From NCBI RefSeq assembly GCF_050320075.1, contig NZ_CP190018.1: DNA of 64,000 nt, one strand, 5' to 3'. The stretch comes from Escherichia coli. GTDB taxonomy: Bacteria > Pseudomonadota > Gammaproteobacteria > Enterobacterales > Enterobacteriaceae. This document shows, piece after piece, positions 52,187-58,436 of the stretch. Position numbers and translations under genes: made by a program. The notes beneath the pieces are model-generated. The model had not been told where the DNA came from and made no database searches. It was given only the letters and a program-made list of their open reading frames with translations. Numbering within the stretch: the stretch's first letter is position 1; each line of letters begins with the position of its first letter.

Positions 52187-52564
52187 TTAGTCATACTGTA
52201 TTTGCGGAGAAACTGTTGATAAAACATCAATAACATCATTTGACGTGGCAATGACATAATGCTCGATCACATTATTTTTATAAATTTCACAACTTTGCAT
52301 AGTAAACCATGCAAAGTAGGCGGAATTCACTACTCTATAGATCCCCGTTTGGTTAATACCGTGAATTCCTGACATTCCTAACAAATCACCTTCGTCAGTA
52401 ACACGAAATGAATGTATCCAGTCAAATGATAACTTAACTTCTGACTTGATCGCCGGACATATGAGGGTAAGTTCAAGCCTGGCATTTTTATAGCTTAAAT
52501 CTGATAGTTCGGCATTTTTAAAAGACAATGAAGTCGGAGTGATATTTATAAAACATTCATCCAT
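52187..52564 (-). CDS. hypothetical small protein (125 aa), AT-rich islet gene C
   Basis: Uninterrupted ORF co-directional with the two genes upstream; no recognisable family. Confidence 0.5.
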   Translation of the reverse strand: MDECFINITPTSLSFKNAELSDLSYKNARLELTLICPAIKSEVKLSFDWIHSFRVTDEGDLLGMSGIHGINQTGIYRVVNSAYFAWFTMQSCEIYKNNVIEHYVIATSNDVIDVLSTVSPQIQYD

Positions 52565-52683: not shown

Positions 52684-53142
52684 TTACCTTGTCCAGTCAT
52701 CAACCATTTTTTTCAGGGGGAACATCTGCAATACATTCATTAATGCGAAATATAATTCCCCCTGTGGCACCCATATTCTAATCTTCTCATCCCCTAAAAT
52801 GAAAAATTGCAATTGACGTTTGAAACCTAATGTTTTATCTTCAGGTAATTCAGCTTGTATTTTTTTATTGATATCATCAAGGTAGATGTGATGACAATAC
52901 TCATCAAACATACTCATTACTTCCAGACCGTTTACAGATGTCCATCTTTGTTCACTTTCCCAATAAACAAGAACCGGTTTGCGGCAGGTATATCTGCCTA
53001 AAAAGCGCTGAATGTGTTCTTCCTGATTCTCGTAAAATATTGCCTCTGCATTCGAGATTTGCCGACGCATTCGCCAGCGGATTTTTTCTTCATAAAAAGA
53101 CAATTTGTCGCATTTGGTATTACTCAAATTCATTGTCAACAA
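52684..53142 (-). CDS. hypothetical small protein (about 150 aa), AT-rich islet gene B; start uncertain
   Basis: Uninterrupted ORF; overlaps the end of islet gene A. Confidence 0.5.
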   Translation of the reverse strand: MLTMNLSNTKCDKLSFYEEKIRWRMRRQISNAEAIFYENQEEHIQRFLGRYTCRKPVLVYWESEQRWTSVNGLEVMSMFDEYCHHIYLDDINKKIQAELPEDKTLGFKRQLQFFILGDEKIRIWVPQGELYFALMNVLQMFPLKKMVDDWTR

Positions 53143-53512
53143 CTCGCATGGTTTTAAATATAAAATTTAAAAAACCGCCAAACAAATGAAGTGAAATTTC
53201 ATACTTCTTTGCCTTATAAACAATTACCGCATCTTTAATATTACCTGCATTTTGGTTATCTATAAGTTCAGCAATATCCATAACCTGCGATAAATGTTCC
53301 ACTCCCGTAAACTCGAACCTTTTTCGTTCCCTTCCGGCTGTAAATTCATCAACATAAAGTTCTGCCGTCAATATAAAATTATACTCGGTGTGGTGACATT
53401 CCATTCTGGTTTCTACTAAAACACCATCATGCCAGATAATATTGTCTAAATTTTTCATACTATTAATCCAATCCATTACTTTCTGATAAAATTTCCTCTG
53501 GAAGTTTTTCAT
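53120..53512 (-). CDS. hypothetical small protein (130 aa), AT-rich islet gene A
   Basis: Uninterrupted ORF; first gene of the three-gene islet. Confidence 0.5.
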   Translation of the reverse strand: MKNFQRKFYQKVMDWINSMKNLDNIIWHDGVLVETRMECHHTEYNFILTAELYVDEFTAGRERKRFEFTGVEHLSQVMDIAELIDNQNAGNIKDAVIVYKAKKYEISLHLFGGFLNFIFKTMRVVDNEFE

Positions 53513-53685
53513 AGAAAGAGATTAAAGCCTGACCGACGCAATCAAGCTCTATTATTCGCTCATAATACGATCTCATTAAAATATCATGCTTACTCATTGC
53601 AATACGTCCTGTTTACCATGGGCAGAGTATGAATGTAACTTATGTAAAATAGTACCGCCCTTGCTATTTTTCAGAATTCATAAAG

Positions 53686-54755
53686 GCTGAATTTACAATC
53701 CAAGTGCAACAAAAAAAGAAGTACTCATCAACTAGAATATAATTTTGTTTCCACACAAAAACCATTTCCAAATGATGAGTACTTCCTACCGACATCTTAC
53801 AATAAACGAGCGAGAAAAGATAATGATTTTACTCGCACAGGGCAAAAAACAAGCAGAAATTGCCAAAGCACTGGGACGTAGCTCCAGCACCATTTCTCGC
53901 GAGCTGAAACGACACGCTCTAGAAAGCTACAGTGCAACGAACGCACAAAACAGCTATTTGAAGCATCGTCAAAATAGCAAAGCACAGCGCAAATTAGAGC
54001 AGCCTGAATATTTCAATTTGGTGCAAGAAAAGTTTCTGACAGAAAACTGGTCGCCCGAACAAATCAGCGCACGATTAAAATTGGAAAAATCTGAATTATC
54101 CATTAGTTATTCAACCATTTATCGTGGTATTTATTCAGGGTTGTTTGATATAGGCGAACGCAAAGCCAGTCGCAAACTGCGCCACAAAGGCAAAACACGG
54201 CATACAAAAAATCATCATGAAAAACGTGGCAAAATTCAGATATCCAACCATTTGAACGACCGTCCCATTTCGGCGCAAAATCGCAGTCGCTTTGGACATT
54301 GGGAAGCCGATACCGTACTGGGTAAAGCGGGTGGAGCTTGTTTGCTGACGCTGACGGAACGCAAAAGTCGTTTTGAGTTGGTGAAGAAAATTCCTGCCAA
54401 AAAAGCCGAAGCAGTCCAAAAAGCCATGATTGAATTGCTGGATTCACATATATTGCGGTCAATTACGCCAGACCGTGGTAAAGAATTTGCCCAACATCGT
54501 TTGGTAACAGAAGCACTGGGTGTAGAATTTTACTTCCCCGAGCCGCATCAACCGTGGACACGGGGAACGAATGAAAATACAAATGGGTTACTTCGTGAAT
54601 ACTTTCCGAAGCACCAAGACATCAATCAGTGGAGCGAAGTTGATATTCAACAGGTGATCAATAAACTGAATTTACGACCACGTAAATGTTTAGGTTGGAA
54701 AACACCTTATGAAGTTTACTTCAAAAAATCGTTGCACTTGGTTTGACAATTCAAG
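53686..54755 (+). mobile_element. ISApl1 (IS30 family), upstream copy, transposase intact
   Basis: 1070 bp; imperfect terminal inverted repeats TGAATTTACAATCCAAGTGCAAC / TGAATTGTCAAACCAAGTGCAAC (reverse complement). Confidence 0.85.
53823..54746 (+). CDS. tnpA: ISApl1 transposase (IS30 family, DDE); 307 aa from MILLAQGKKQ, alternative upstream starts at 53772/53775 possible
   Basis: HTH region LGRSSSTISRELKR; C-terminal DDE integrase core. Confidence 0.8.
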   Translation: MILLAQGKKQAEIAKALGRSSSTISRELKRHALESYSATNAQNSYLKHRQNSKAQRKLEQPEYFNLVQEKFLTENWSPEQISARLKLEKSELSISYSTIYRGIYSGLFDIGERKASRKLRHKGKTRHTKNHHEKRGKIQISNHLNDRPISAQNRSRFGHWEADTVLGKAGGACLLTLTERKSRFELVKKIPAKKAEAVQKAMIELLDSHILRSITPDRGKEFAQHRLVTEALGVEFYFPEPHQPWTRGTNENTNGLLREYFPKHQDINQWSEVDIQQVINKLNLRPRKCLGWKTPYEVYFKKSLHLV

Positions 54756-54941
54756 ATACAAATTATAAATACTCTCAAGTGTATATTCAGTATGGGATTG
54801 CGCAATGATTGCCTAATAAAATTTCTGAAATATTTCTGTATCGCATAATTTTTTATATCAGATAAATTGTACTGGATTTCTTAAAAAATTGCAGTATAAT
54901 TGCCGCAATTATCCCACCGTTTATTTTTTGAGTAGTTTCTC

Positions 54942-56567
54942 ATGATGCAGCATACTTCTGTGTGGTACCGACGCTCGGTCAGTCCGTTTGTTCTTGTGGC
55001 GAGTGTTGCCGTTTTCTTGACCGCGACCGCCAATCTTACCTTTTTTGATAAAATCAGCCAAACCTATCCCATCGCGGACAATCTCGGCTTTGTGCTGACG
55101 ATCGCTGTCGTGCTCTTTGGCGCGATGCTACTGATCACCACGCTGTTATCATCGTATCGCTATGTGCTAAAGCCTGTGTTGATTTTGCTATTAATCATGG
55201 GCGCGGTGACCAGTTATTTTACTGACACTTATGGCACGGTCTATGATACGACCATGCTCCAAAATGCCCTACAGACCGACCAAGCCGAGACCAAGGATCT
55301 ATTAAACGCAGCGTTTATCATGCGTATCATTGGTTTGGGTGTGCTACCAAGTTTGCTTGTGGCTTTTGTTAAGGTGGATTATCCGACTTGGGGCAAGGGT
55401 TTGATGCGCCGATTGGGCTTGATCGTGGCAAGTCTTGCGCTGATTTTACTGCCTGTGGTGGCGTTCAGCAGTCATTATGCCAGTTTCTTTCGCGTGCATA
55501 AGCCGCTGCGTAGCTATGTCAATCCGATCATGCCAATCTACTCGGTGGGTAAGCTTGCCAGTATTGAGTATAAAAAAGCCAGTGCGCCAAAAGATACCAT
55601 TTATCACGCCAAAGACGCGGTACAAGCAACCAAGCCTGATATGCGTAAGCCACGCCTAGTGGTGTTCGTCGTCGGTGAGACGGCACGCGCCGATCATGTC
55701 AGCTTCAATGGCTATGAGCGCGATACTTTCCCACAGCTTGCCAAGATCGATGGCGTGACCAATTTTAGCAATGTCACATCGTGCGGCACATCGACGGCGT
55801 ATTCTGTGCCGTGTATGTTCAGCTATCTGGGCGCGGATGAGTATGATGTCGATACCGCCAAATACCAAGAAAATGTGCTGGATACGCTGGATCGCTTGGG
55901 CGTAAGTATCTTGTGGCGTGATAATAATTCGGACTCAAAAGGCGTGATGGATAAGCTGCCAAAAGCGCAATTTGCCGATTATAAATCCGCGACCAACAAC
56001 GCCATCTGCAACACCAATCCTTATAACGAATGCCGCGATGTCGGTATGCTCGTTGGCTTAGATGACTTTGTCGCTGCCAATAACGGCAAAGATATGCTGA
56101 TCATGCTGCACCAAATGGGCAATCACGGGCCTGCGTATTTTAAGCGATATGATGAAAAGTTTGCCAAATTCACGCCAGTGTGTGAAGGTAATGAGCTTGC
56201 CAAGTGCGAACATCAGTCCTTGATCAATGCTTATGACAATGCCTTGCTTGCCACCGATGATTTCATCGCTCAAAGTATCCAGTGGCTGCAGACGCACAGC
56301 AATGCCTATGATGTCTCAATGCTGTATGTCAGCGATCATGGCGAAAGTCTGGGTGAGAACGGTGTCTATCTACATGGTATGCCAAATGCCTTTGCACCAA
56401 AAGAACAGCGCAGTGTGCCTGCATTTTTCTGGACGGATAAGCAAACTGGCATCACGCCAATGGCAACCGATACCGTCCTGACCCATGACGCGATCACGCC
56501 GACATTATTAAAGCTGTTTGATGTCACCGCGGACAAAGTCAAAGACCGCACCGCATTCATCCGCTGA
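54942..56567 (+). CDS. mcr-1: phosphoethanolamine--lipid A transferase MCR-1 (mobile colistin resistance)
   Basis: 541 aa; MMQHTSVWYRRSVSPFVLVAS N-terminus, five-helix membrane domain, sulfatase-like catalytic domain with the nucleophile Thr in the CGTSTAYS motif. Confidence 0.95.
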   Translation: MMQHTSVWYRRSVSPFVLVASVAVFLTATANLTFFDKISQTYPIADNLGFVLTIAVVLFGAMLLITTLLSSYRYVLKPVLILLLIMGAVTSYFTDTYGTVYDTTMLQNALQTDQAETKDLLNAAFIMRIIGLGVLPSLLVAFVKVDYPTWGKGLMRRLGLIVASLALILLPVVAFSSHYASFFRVHKPLRSYVNPIMPIYSVGKLASIEYKKASAPKDTIYHAKDAVQATKPDMRKPRLVVFVVGETARADHVSFNGYERDTFPQLAKIDGVTNFSNVTSCGTSTAYSVPCMFSYLGADEYDVDTAKYQENVLDTLDRLGVSILWRDNNSDSKGVMDKLPKAQFADYKSATNNAICNTNPYNECRDVGMLVGLDDFVAANNGKDMLIMLHQMGNHGPAYFKRYDEKFAKFTPVCEGNELAKCEHQSLINAYDNALLATDDFIAQSIQWLQTHSNAYDVSMLYVSDHGESLGENGVYLHGMPNAFAPKEQRSVPAFFWTDKQTGITPMATDTVLTHDAITPTLLKLFDVTADKVKDRTAFIR

Positions 56568-56614
56568 TTTCTCCCTGTATTTTTTCCAAACCCACCGCAC
56601 ACTCCATTCGTATT

Positions 56615-57361
56615 ATGGGCGGTGGGGTGGGGTTTGTTATGCCGTATTTATCAAATAAACGCCTACTTGCTGAGATGAGTATCGCTCTTGTCATGGCGAT
56701 CGTTGCCACGCTGACCCTTGAGCACAGTCAGATTGATCTGATGGTCGCTGATTGGTTTTATCTGGGTATGGGGCATTGGATGGTTGCCAAGCAAGCTTTT
56801 TTGCCAGATTTGCTACTGTATTCTGGACTAAAAAAGCTGCTGATGGCGATGCTGATCTACTTGCTGGTTGCGACCATTTGCCGTGCTTATCATGAGAAAA
56901 AGGGCAATGCTATCACTGCCAAGTGGCTTGTCCCAGTGACAAAATTTCGCGTGCGTGAGCTTGCGTATCTGGTGCTGACTTTGATCCTAGTGCCGACAGT
57001 TGTCGCGTCATTGAAGGCATATACTCATGTGGTCTGCCCTGTGCATTTGACGATTTTTGATGGTACGCTGCCGTATTTGCCGATGCTTGATAGTATGCGT
57101 AACACCATTCCTGATAAGTGCTTTCCTGCGGCGCATGCCAGTAGCGGATTTGCGCTGTTTGCCTTTGCGTTTGCGCCAAGTTTGCGCCGCCGTCGTGGTG
57201 CGATCATCATCGTGGTGATGGCATTGGGCTGGGCGATGGGCTGCTATAAGATGATTATTGGCGATCATTTTTTGAGCCATACGGTGGTGTCGATGATGCT
57301 TGCGTGGGCGATGTCGGCAGGGCTTGCGTGGGTGTTTTTTAAGAAGGGTGAACAAGTTTAA
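56615..57361 (+). CDS. pap2: PAP2-family membrane phosphatase (start may be 56639)
   Basis: 248-aa hydrophobic protein directly downstream of mcr-1, as in the mcr-1 cassette. Confidence 0.8.
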   Translation: MGGGVGFVMPYLSNKRLLAEMSIALVMAIVATLTLEHSQIDLMVADWFYLGMGHWMVAKQAFLPDLLLYSGLKKLLMAMLIYLLVATICRAYHEKKGNAITAKWLVPVTKFRVRELAYLVLTLILVPTVVASLKAYTHVVCPVHLTIFDGTLPYLPMLDSMRNTIPDKCFPAAHASSGFALFAFAFAPSLRRRRGAIIIVVMALGWAMGCYKMIIGDHFLSHTVVSMMLAWAMSAGLAWVFFKKGEQV

Positions 57362-57364
57362 TCG

Positions 57365-58434
57365 GCTGAATTTACAATCCAAGTGCAACAAAAAAAGAAG
57401 TACTCATCAACTAGAATATAATTTTGTTTCCACACAAAAACCACTTCCAAATGATGAGTACTTCCTACCGACATCTTACAATAAACGAGCGAGAAAAGAT
57501 AATGATTTTACTCGCACAGGGCAAAAAATAAGCAGAAATTGCCAAAGCACTGGGACGTAGCTCCAGCACCATTTCTCGCGAGCTGAAACGACACGCTCTA
57601 GAAAGCTACAGTGCAACGAACGCACAAAACAGCTATTTGAAGCATCGTCAAAATAGCAAAGCACAGCGCAAATTAGAGCAGCCTGAATATTTCAATTTGG
57701 TGCAAGAAAAGTTTCTGACAGAAAACTGGTCGCCCGAACAAATCAGCGCACGATTAAAATTGGAAAAATCTGAATTATCCATTAGTTATTCAACCATTTA
57801 TCGTGGTATTTATTCAGGGTTGTTTGATATAGGCGAACGCAAAGCCAGTCGCAAACTGCGCCACAAAGGCAAAACACGGCATACAAAAAATCATCATGAA
57901 AAACGTGGCAAAATTCAGATATCCAACCATTTGAACGACCGTCCCATTTCGGCGCAAAATCGCAGTCGCTTTGGACATTGGGAAGCCGATACCGTACTGG
58001 GTAAAGCGGGTGGAGCTTGTTTGCTGACGCTGACGGAACGCAAAAGTCGTTTTGAGTTGGTGAAGAAAATTCCTGCCAAAAAAGCCGAAGCAGTCCAAAA
58101 AGCCATGATTGAATTGCTGGATTCACATATATTGCGGTCAATTACGCCAGACCGTGGTAAAGAATTTGCCCAACATCGTTTGGTAACAGAAGCACTGGGT
58201 GTAGAATTTTACTTCCCCGAGCCGCATCAACCGTGGACACGGGGAACGAATGAAAATACAAATGGGTTACTTCGTGAATACTTTCCGAAGCACCAAGACA
58301 TCAATCAGTGGAGCGAAGTTGATATTCAACAGGTGATCAATAAACTGAATTTACGACCACGTAAATGTTTAGGTTGGAAAACACCTTATGAAGTTTACTT
58401 CAAAAAATCGTTGCACTTGGTTTGACAATTCAAG
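57365..58434 (+). mobile_element. ISApl1, downstream copy, transposase inactivated
   Basis: Co-linear with the upstream copy at a fixed offset of 3679 bp; at least two substitutions seen, including the nonsense change. Confidence 0.85.
57502..58425 (+). pseudogene. tnpA: ISApl1 transposase pseudogene, codon 10 CAA->TAA (57529..57531)
   Basis: GGCAAAAAATAAGCAGAAATT here versus GGCAAAAAACAAGCAGAAATT in the upstream copy; remainder of the frame matches copy 1. Confidence 0.8.
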
Positions 58435-58436
58435 AG

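What the first reader, a model, noticed from the sequence alone, without database searches (positions are those of the whole stretch)
53466..53597. Possible 44-codon ORF upstream of, and overlapping, islet gene A
On the minus strand an ATG near 53597 opens a frame reading MSKHDILMRSYYERIIELDCVGQALISFYEKLPEEILSESNGLD that overlaps the annotated start of the 130-aa islet ORF in a different frame. It could be a small leader or partner peptide, or the real start of gene A may differ from the one called.
Basis: seen in the sequence. Interest (0 to 1): 0.25.

Follow-up and report, generated by a model that had tools for sequence, protein, structure and literature searches.

The report
Deletion remnant of orphan immunity gene
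The 44-codon frame is what remains of a 141-codon gene (a predicted immunity protein against an Rhs toxin) after an internal in-frame deletion, so it is an ordinary pseudogene fragment rather than a leader or partner peptide; the neighbouring gene A really starts 54 bases further downstream and does not overlap it.

Summary
The ORF exists exactly as described (53463-53597, minus strand, 44 codons plus stop). It is not a dedicated small gene. O157:H7 and other E. coli have an intact 141-aa gene at the same place, between hrpA and ydcF. The window allele keeps that gene's Shine-Dalgarno, ATG, first 35 codons and the stop/TAATAGnATG junction to gene A, but has lost a net 291 nt (97 codons, in frame). 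RefSeq/PGAP already marks the identical sequence as an incomplete pseudogene and starts gene A at ATG 53458 (112 aa). The 130-aa call and the 'overlap' are therefore a longest-ORF artefact created by the deletion.

The parent is an uncharacterised all-alpha, HEAT-like protein. Distant relatives (35-47% identity) sit directly downstream of Rhs toxins carrying one particular C-terminal toxin tip in five loci, which is the canonical immunity position. The hrpA-ydcF islet therefore reads as a decaying orphan-immunity islet. About 335 of 5,426 complete E. coli genomes have the intact gene and about 250-265 have this deletion.

There is no Rfam hit, no significant RNA structure and no conservation as a short frame. 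A residual role as a translational-coupling leader for gene A cannot be excluded. A Tn6330-type mcr-1 transposon lies 88 bp upstream.

The parts
53463..53597 (-). 44-codon ORF plus TAA stop: internal-deletion remnant of a 141-aa (family 127-192 aa) HEAT-like predicted Rhs-immunity gene
53493..53597 (-). Codons 1-35, homologous to the N-terminus of the parent (helices 1-2 and the first residues of helix 3 of about 8). PGAP pseudogene feature 'missing C-terminus' in identical genomes
53466..53492 (-). Nine tail codons (ILSESNGLD) spanning the deletion scar. ATTTTATCA equals parent codons 43-45; the rest is only patchily similar to the parent 3' end. Net loss relative to O157 is 291 nt (97 codons)
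53607..53610 (-). AGGA Shine-Dalgarno 9 nt upstream of the ATG, conserved with the intact alleles
53598..53685 (-). 88-nt upstream region retained between the transposon insertion point and the ATG. No convincing sigma-70 consensus on this strand
53120..53458 (-). Gene A, 112 aa, true start ATG 53458, 4 nt after the remnant's stop (TAA TAGT ATG). The 18-codon extension back to 53512 is an artefact
52684..53133 (-). Gene B, 149 aa, start overlaps the end of gene A by 14 nt (tight operon)
52187..52564 (-). Gene C, 125 aa, last islet gene before ydcF
53686..58434 (+). Tn6330-type composite transposon (ISApl1 53686-54755, mcr-1 54942-56567, pap2 56615-57361, ISApl1 57365-58434) with 2-bp duplication AG at 53684-53685 and 58435-58436, inserted between the hrpA terminator and the islet

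Best explanation
The 44-codon ORF is a pseudogene remnant. An ancestral islet between hrpA and ydcF carried a gene for a small all-alpha (HEAT-like) protein of 127-141 aa, followed 4 nt later by gene A. In the lineage of this window the gene lost a net 291 nt (97 codons) from its interior. What remains is its ribosome-binding site, ATG and 35 N-terminal codons, joined in frame to nine tail codons, with the stop in its original position 4 nt before gene A's ATG. The product would contain only 2 of about 8 helices and cannot form the parental domain, so it is most likely non-functional. It may still be translated because all initiation signals survive. The deletion also brought an out-of-frame ATG (53512) inside the old 5' region into frame with gene A with no stop between them. 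This creates the spurious 130-aa 'gene A' and the apparent overlap.

The parent family is inferred to be an immunity protein against one type of Rhs C-terminal toxin, and the E. coli islet an orphan-immunity islet without its toxin that is decaying in several lineages.

Shown: the ORF, the homology, the deletion, the population counts, the gene A start, and the Rhs adjacency of relatives. Inferred: loss of function, immunity function, and possible residual translation.
For: - **Same locus, intact gene:** O157:H7 L002 and L003 have a 141-aa CDS where the window has the remnant. Alignments show shared upstream region, SD, ATG, 35 codons and the TAATAGnATG junction, with about 290 nt missing in the window.
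- **Existing annotation:** PGAP annotates the identical sequence as 'incomplete; missing C-terminus'.
- **No short-gene family:** the 44-aa query finds only hits of 55 aa or less, all fragments of this gene.
- **Population:** 335 genomes have the full gene at 99% identity or more, and 251 match only nt 1-109 at 86%. 261+4 genomes have the window allele.
- **Other decay forms of the same gene:** 83-aa frameshifts, a 130-aa form from a 1-nt insertion, and fusions to gene C.
- **Structure:** the AF2 model of the parent has pLDDT 89.5 and 8 helices over residues 3-124. The remnant keeps residues 1-35.
- **Parent family next to Rhs toxins:** 31 relatives among 1.84 billion representatives. In L018 a member 47% identical (E 6e-33) starts 16 nt after a 1405-aa Rhs protein, and a second copy ends the orphan array. 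In L019, L020, L024 and L025 members follow ORFs ending in the same DPLGL...toxin tip, with RHS repeats/core present in L024 and L025.
- **Published rule:** the cognate RhsI is encoded immediately downstream of the Rhs-CT after DPxGL (PMC3150448).
- **Alternative cargo:** the same hrpA-ydcF site carries an SMI1/KNR4 family protein in other genomes.
Against: - No expression data exist, so 'non-functional' is an inference.
- The deletion is in frame and preserves the stop-to-start junction with gene A. That could reflect selection, although the chance expectation is already 1 in 3.
- dN/dS of the 35 retained codons versus O157 is 0.28 on only 14 substitutions, which does not show relaxed constraint.
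- No intact ancestor carrying the window-specific N-terminal substitutions (K3, M8, Y11, Y12, L18, C20) was found. The scar cannot be resolved to single events.
- The immunity function of the family rests on gene position in five metagenomic/genomic loci, not on experiment. The E. coli forms lack the C-terminal ~50 residues of the wider family.
Confidence: 0.85

Rival explanations
1. Exapted leader: the remnant has the deletion origin described above, but it is retained because its translation delivers ribosomes to the weak start of gene A 4 nt downstream (termination-reinitiation coupling). On this view the in-frame nature of the deletion was selected.
For: The SD, ATG and original stop position are preserved and the deletion is a multiple of 3. 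Gene A has only a weak SD-like GGA (read). The parent-gene A pair with a tight junction is conserved across alleles, and the pair recurs in another genus. About 250-265 genomes keep the allele unchanged.
Against: In-frame has a prior of 1/3. The carriers are 99% or more identical over the whole 1.6 kb, so persistence says nothing about selection. Other lineages carry out-of-frame decay forms of the same gene. In L021 the pair is separated by 67 nt, so tight coupling is not universal. The gene A start is not sequestered in significant mRNA structure (z -0.84).
Confidence: 0.1
2. A bona fide small protein (partner or regulatory peptide) acting with gene A.
For: An intact ORF with a good SD, adjacent to gene A.
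Against: There is no family of short proteins: every relative is a fragment or a gene of 127 aa or more. The peptide retains 2 of about 8 helices of a globular repeat domain. PGAP calls it a pseudogene. No hits in Pfam, NCBIfam, PADLOC or PHROGs.
Confidence: 0.03
3. The region is really the 5' end of a longer gene A (130 aa from ATG 53512) and the short frame is incidental.
For: An uninterrupted ORF runs from 53512 to 53120.
Against: The 18-codon extension is an out-of-frame reading of the parent's conserved 5' block and exists only in the deletion allele. O157 and L007 have different, unrelated extensions. PGAP consistently aa. The cross-genus homolog aligns only from residue 5.
Confidence: 0.02

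Closest known systems
Orphan immunity genes and orphan toxin/immunity arrays of Rhs and CDI systems (Poole et al. 2011, PMC3150448; Koskiniemi et al. 2014, PMC3967940; orphan immunity in Serratia Rhs systems, PMC10539506; putative T6SS immunity islet in S. Typhi, PMC7400221)
   Same: Relatives of the parent gene occupy the position immediately downstream of an Rhs C-terminal toxin after the DPxGL motif, and also occur at the end of an orphan array. The E. coli islet carries small, AT-rich, unannotated genes without a toxin, at a variable site that elsewhere carries an SMI1/KNR4 gene.
   Different: In the window there is no Rhs gene or toxin tip nearby. The gene is not merely orphaned but internally deleted. 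Neither the toxin tip nor the immunity family is in Pfam or NCBIfam, and no protection has been shown experimentally.
PGAP/RefSeq pseudogene annotation of the identical sequence (e.g. CA897_RS24360 in NZ_CP042899.1)
   Same: Same 105 nt (window 53493-53597) annotated 'hypothetical protein; incomplete; partial in the middle of a contig; missing C-terminus'.
   Different: PGAP gives no parent identity, no deletion anatomy and no functional inference.
Upstream leader ORFs and translationally coupled first cistrons (own knowledge: e.g. trpL-type attenuation leaders; termination-reinitiation coupling in operons)
   Same: A short translated-looking ORF ends 4 nt before the start of the next gene.
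   Different: There is no conservation as a short ORF, no regulatory codon run, no terminator/antiterminator structure and no Rfam hit. Its origin is demonstrably a deletion.

Membership tests
Leader peptide / regulatory upstream ORF | Short ORF conserved as a short ORF at homologous loci | tested here: not met
   At homologous loci the frame is the 5' end of a 127-192-aa gene. Short versions are fragments or frameshifts.
Leader peptide / regulatory upstream ORF | Regulatory RNA structure (attenuator or start-site sequestration) linked to the ORF | tested here: not met
   Fold z-scores are -0.84 and +0.71 and there is no Rfam match at E<=1. The only terminator-like hit (53551-53523) has 4 GC of 13 pairs and lies in sequence shared with the parent.
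HEAT-like predicted Rhs-immunity family (parent; uncharacterised) | Sequence homology to family members | tested here: met
   Residues 1-35 are 83% identical to E. coli members (E 3e-9) and align to the family N-terminus.
HEAT-like predicted Rhs-immunity family (parent; uncharacterised) | Complete helical-repeat domain (about 8 helices, about 125 residues) | tested here: not met
   Only helices 1-2 and the first residues of helix 3 are retained, and 97 codons are missing. It is therefore a fragment, not a functional member.
HEAT-like predicted Rhs-immunity family (parent; uncharacterised) | Encoded immediately downstream of a cognate Rhs C-terminal toxin | tested here: not met
   Met for distant members in L018, L019, L020, L024 and L025. 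Not met in the window or any E. coli hrpA-ydcF islet, which lack a toxin: these are orphan copies.
HEAT-like predicted Rhs-immunity family (parent; uncharacterised) | Neutralises the cognate toxin | not testable with these tools
   Requires co-expression or competition assays.
Pseudogene by internal deletion | Intact ortholog at the syntenic position in related genomes, with flanks collinear | tested here: met
   aldA-ydcF-C-B-A-[141 aa]-hrpA in O157 and others. 335 genomes have the intact gene.
Tn6330 (ISApl1-mcr-1-pap2-ISApl1) - neighbouring element, not the finding | Two directly oriented ISApl1 copies flanking mcr-1 and pap2, with a 2-bp target duplication | tested here: met
   1070-bp copies differing at 2 positions. 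MCR-1 scores 1302.7 bits against a cutoff of 1100, with PAP2_near_MCR1 and an IS30 transposase also matched. PGAP names the element ISApl1. AG duplication read; the empty site is seen.

The most novel reading that the evidence does not exclude
The remnant is not inert. Its in-frame architecture has been kept because translation of the 44 codons is what loads ribosomes onto the weakly initiating gene A (and through it gene B), so a dead immunity gene has been recycled into a coupling leader for the surviving orphan immunity genes.
Probability: 0.1. Interest if true: 0.3.

Novelty: already known. Interest (0 to 1): 0.1.

Why it matters
For the finding itself, very little: it resolves an apparent overlapping-gene puzzle as a pseudogene scar plus a mis-called start, both already handled correctly by RefSeq annotation.

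The context is modestly useful in three ways:
- It identifies an uncharacterised Rhs toxin-tip/immunity family pair.
- It shows that the hrpA-ydcF junction of E. coli is a hotspot holding a decaying orphan-immunity islet.
- It shows that in this strain a chromosomal Tn6330 mcr-1 transposon landed 88 bp upstream of that islet.

Tried and rejected
- **Family libraries:** Pfam, NCBIfam, PADLOC and PHROGs scans of the remnant, parent and islet genes A-C gave nothing meaningful.
- **Solved structures:** a PDB sequence-profile search found nothing.
- **RNA:** an Rfam scan and RNA folding for leader-type structures were negative.
- **Promoter:** the scan found no sigma-70 consensus upstream of the ORF on its strand.
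- **Selection:** dN/dS on 35 codons is too few sites to discriminate.
- **Paralogy:** gene A and gene C show no similarity to each other.
- **Literature:** no papers mention DUF2262. The EHEC T6SS in-silico paper does not mention this locus.
- **Same insertion elsewhere:** no complete E. coli genome in the collection carries the same Tn6330 junction.
- **Deletion scar:** attempts to resolve it into discrete events were inconclusive. A clean 21-nt gap (parent codons 36-42) is visible, but the rest aligns only patchily.
- **Other contexts:** some distant family members (L013/L014, L016/L017, L022, L023) lie in contexts without a recognisable toxin.

Full report
**Observation.** An AGGA Shine-Dalgarno lies 9 nt before the ATG (53607-53610, read). 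The longest-ORF version of the next gene ('gene A', 53120..53512, 130 aa) overlaps it by 50 nt in another frame. ORFs of this size are common here: about 30 of 44 aa or more in 5 kb. The ORF alone is therefore not evidence of a gene.

**Setting.** The window is an E. coli chromosome with the order trg ... gap, aldA, ydcF, a three-gene islet plus this ORF, then hrpA and azoR. Genomes with 100% identical islet sequence are annotated by PGAP with gene A as a 112-aa CDS starting at the ATG equivalent to window 53458.

**What it is.**
- A distant-mode search showed that in O157:H7 and some other strains the same 286 bp matches as two pieces spread over 577 bp.
- Those genomes have an intact 141-aa CDS (WP_000086434.1) exactly here, ending 4 nt before gene A.
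- Alignments show collinear upstream sequence, SD, ATG and 35 codons (86.7% nt identity). A scar follows, and then the conserved TAATAG(C/T)ATGAAAAAT junction.
- The O157 gene is 426 nt and the window ORF 135 nt, a net loss of 291 nt, or 97 codons, in frame.
- A clean 21-nt gap (parent codons 36-42) is followed by ATTTTATCA (parent codons 43-45). Almost everything up to the stop is then lost, and the last six codons align only patchily.
- The 44-aa peptide used as a query finds only proteins of 55 aa or less, all fragments or frameshift forms of this gene.

**Gene A start.**
- The ATG at 53512 lies inside the parent's conserved 5' block in another frame. Only the deletion places it in frame with gene A without an intervening stop.
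- In O157 and L007 the longest gene A ORFs have different, unrelated extensions (MVTYLRIVNS..., MFVNESF...). Conservation begins at MKN(L/V)(D/E)NIIWHDG.
- A 40%-identical homolog from another genus aligns from residue 5.
- Gene A therefore starts at 53458 and does not overlap the remnant.

**Population picture.**
- Of 5,426 complete E. coli genomes, 5,418 have the hrpA/ydcF flanks. Most, K-12 included, have nothing between them.
- 803 genomes carry some part of the islet.
- 335 have the full 141-aa gene at 99% identity or more, mainly O157:H7/O55:H7. 251 match only its first 109 nt at 86%, which is the window allele. One search counts 265 genomes at 95% identity or more to the window's version.
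- Fuller versions from draft genomes and read assemblies have a fifth gene (285 aa, DUF7021 + DUF2262) between hrpA and the parent gene.
- Other decay products exist: 130-aa forms from a 1-nt insertion, 83-aa frameshifts, and fusions of the parent's 5' half to the 3' end of gene C.
- Some genomes carry instead an SMI1/KNR4-family gene plus a remnant of gene C.
- The site is therefore a variable hotspot holding a decaying islet.

**What the parent is.**
- It has no Pfam, NCBIfam, PADLOC or PHROGs family.
- An exhaustive phmmer search of 1.84 billion representatives found 31 relatives, mostly 170-192 aa at 35-44% identity.
- With that alignment, AlphaFold2 gives a confident model (pLDDT 89.5, pTM 0.82): eight helices over residues 3-124 and a disordered tail.
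- Genomic context is more informative. In L018 a 192-aa member (47% identical over 108 aa, E 6e-33) starts 16 nt after a 1405-aa Rhs protein. It is followed by orphan Rhs-CT-like fragments and small genes, with a second family copy at the end of the array.
- In L019 and L020 the upstream ORF ends with the same tip, DPLGLYNAAKCASIKSRIENLEKEIWNKRYPDLANNPGNLPY....
- In L024 and L025 an ORF with RHS repeats and the RHS core ends with a diverged version of the same tip, about 80 nt before a 39%-identical member.
- Poole et al. showed that Rhs-CT toxins following DPxGL are neutralised by the RhsI encoded immediately downstream, and that orphan modules accumulate (PMC3150448).
- I therefore infer that the family is the cognate immunity for this uncharacterised toxin tip, and that the E. 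coli copies are orphan immunity genes.
- In L021 (another enterobacterium) a 127-aa member and a gene A homolog sit together just downstream of hrpA. The pair is therefore older than E. coli.

**How the remnant most likely 'works'.** It most likely does nothing. It retains 2 of about 8 helices and cannot form the repeat domain. It probably can still be translated, because the SD and ATG are intact and the whole interval between the hrpA terminator and the ATG is retained. No convincing sigma-70 promoter was found on its strand, however. Because the deletion is in frame, ribosomes would terminate at the original stop 4 nt before gene A's ATG. A residual translational-coupling role is therefore possible but unsupported:
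- the in-frame outcome has a 1/3 prior;
- carriers are near-clonal at this locus;
- other lineages carry out-of-frame decay forms;
- there is no significant mRNA structure around gene A's start (z -0.84), none in the 5' region (z +0.71), and no Rfam hit.

dN/dS for the 35 codons is 0.28 on 14 substitutions. The other islet genes give 0.27-0.6 and ydcF 0.07, so this is uninformative.

**An unexplained detail.** The retained 5' block (53636-53486) is only 78-88% identical to either L007 or O157. The rest of the islet is 96-100% identical to L007. No intact gene with the window-specific N-terminal residues was found. This suggests a mosaic origin from an unsampled allele, or accelerated change after inactivation.

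**Verdict.** This is an ordinary pseudogene remnant already flagged in RefSeq, so interest is low.

Noticed in passing
window 53686-58434 (duplications at 53684-53685 and 58435-58436): Chromosomal Tn6330-type composite transposon: ISApl1, mcr-1 (MCR-1 family, 1302.7 bits), pap2 (PAP2_near_MCR1) and a second ISApl1, with a 2-bp AG target duplication. It is inserted just after the hrpA terminator T-tract and 88 bp upstream of the remnant's ATG. No complete E. coli genome in the collection has this junction.
   Followed up: yes
window 57529 (and 57444): The right-hand ISApl1 copy differs from the left at two positions. One is CAA>TAA, a nonsense mutation early in the transposase, which explains why its ORF is listed as only 262 aa from an internal TTG.
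   Followed up: partly
window 53670-53699 (+): Promoter-like TTCAGA-18-TACAAT spanning the chromosomal flank and the ISApl1 left inverted repeat, reading into the transposase gene. It is a possible hybrid promoter but only a consensus match.
   Followed up: no
L018 1-3532 and 8001-8564; L019 1-1057; L020 2-1031; L024 1-2995; L025 1-1888: An apparently undescribed Rhs toxin tip (after DPLGL: ...KC.SI..RIENLEKEIW.KRYPDLANNPG.LPY...GHEIL...NGCDNPPPP... with a hydrophobic C-terminus). It is recurrently followed by a HEAT-like protein of about 180-192 aa. Neither partner is in Pfam or NCBIfam.
   Followed up: partly
L004/L007/L010 about 2005-2874: Fuller islet versions carry a 285-aa DUF7021 + DUF2262 protein (weak DUF6985 hit) between hrpA and the parent gene. 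It is absent from all 5,426 complete E. coli genomes searched, none of which covers 80% or more of the 5-gene form.
   Followed up: partly
L012 511-1575: At the same hrpA-ydcF site some E. coli carry an SMI1/KNR4 family gene plus a 99-aa hypothetical on the opposite strand, and a C-terminal remnant of islet gene C. The hotspot therefore exchanges immunity-type cargo.
   Followed up: partly
L021 8001-8796: In another enterobacterial genome a 127-aa family member and a 114-aa gene A homolog (40% identity, E 1e-21) lie together directly downstream of hrpA. The two genes therefore travel as a pair across genera.
   Followed up: partly
window 53486-53636: The retained 5' block of the remnant is 78-88% identical to both L007 and O157, while the rest of the islet is 96-100% identical to L007. 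This points to a mosaic origin or accelerated divergence and remains unexplained.
   Followed up: partly
proteins P0021, P0023: Some assemblies encode fusions of the parent's first ~85-90 residues to the C-terminus of islet gene C, implying larger deletions that remove genes A and B.
   Followed up: no
window 53120-53133: Gene B's ATG overlaps the end of gene A by 14 nt. The O157 allele of gene B is 6 codons shorter, with a different C-terminus.
   Followed up: no
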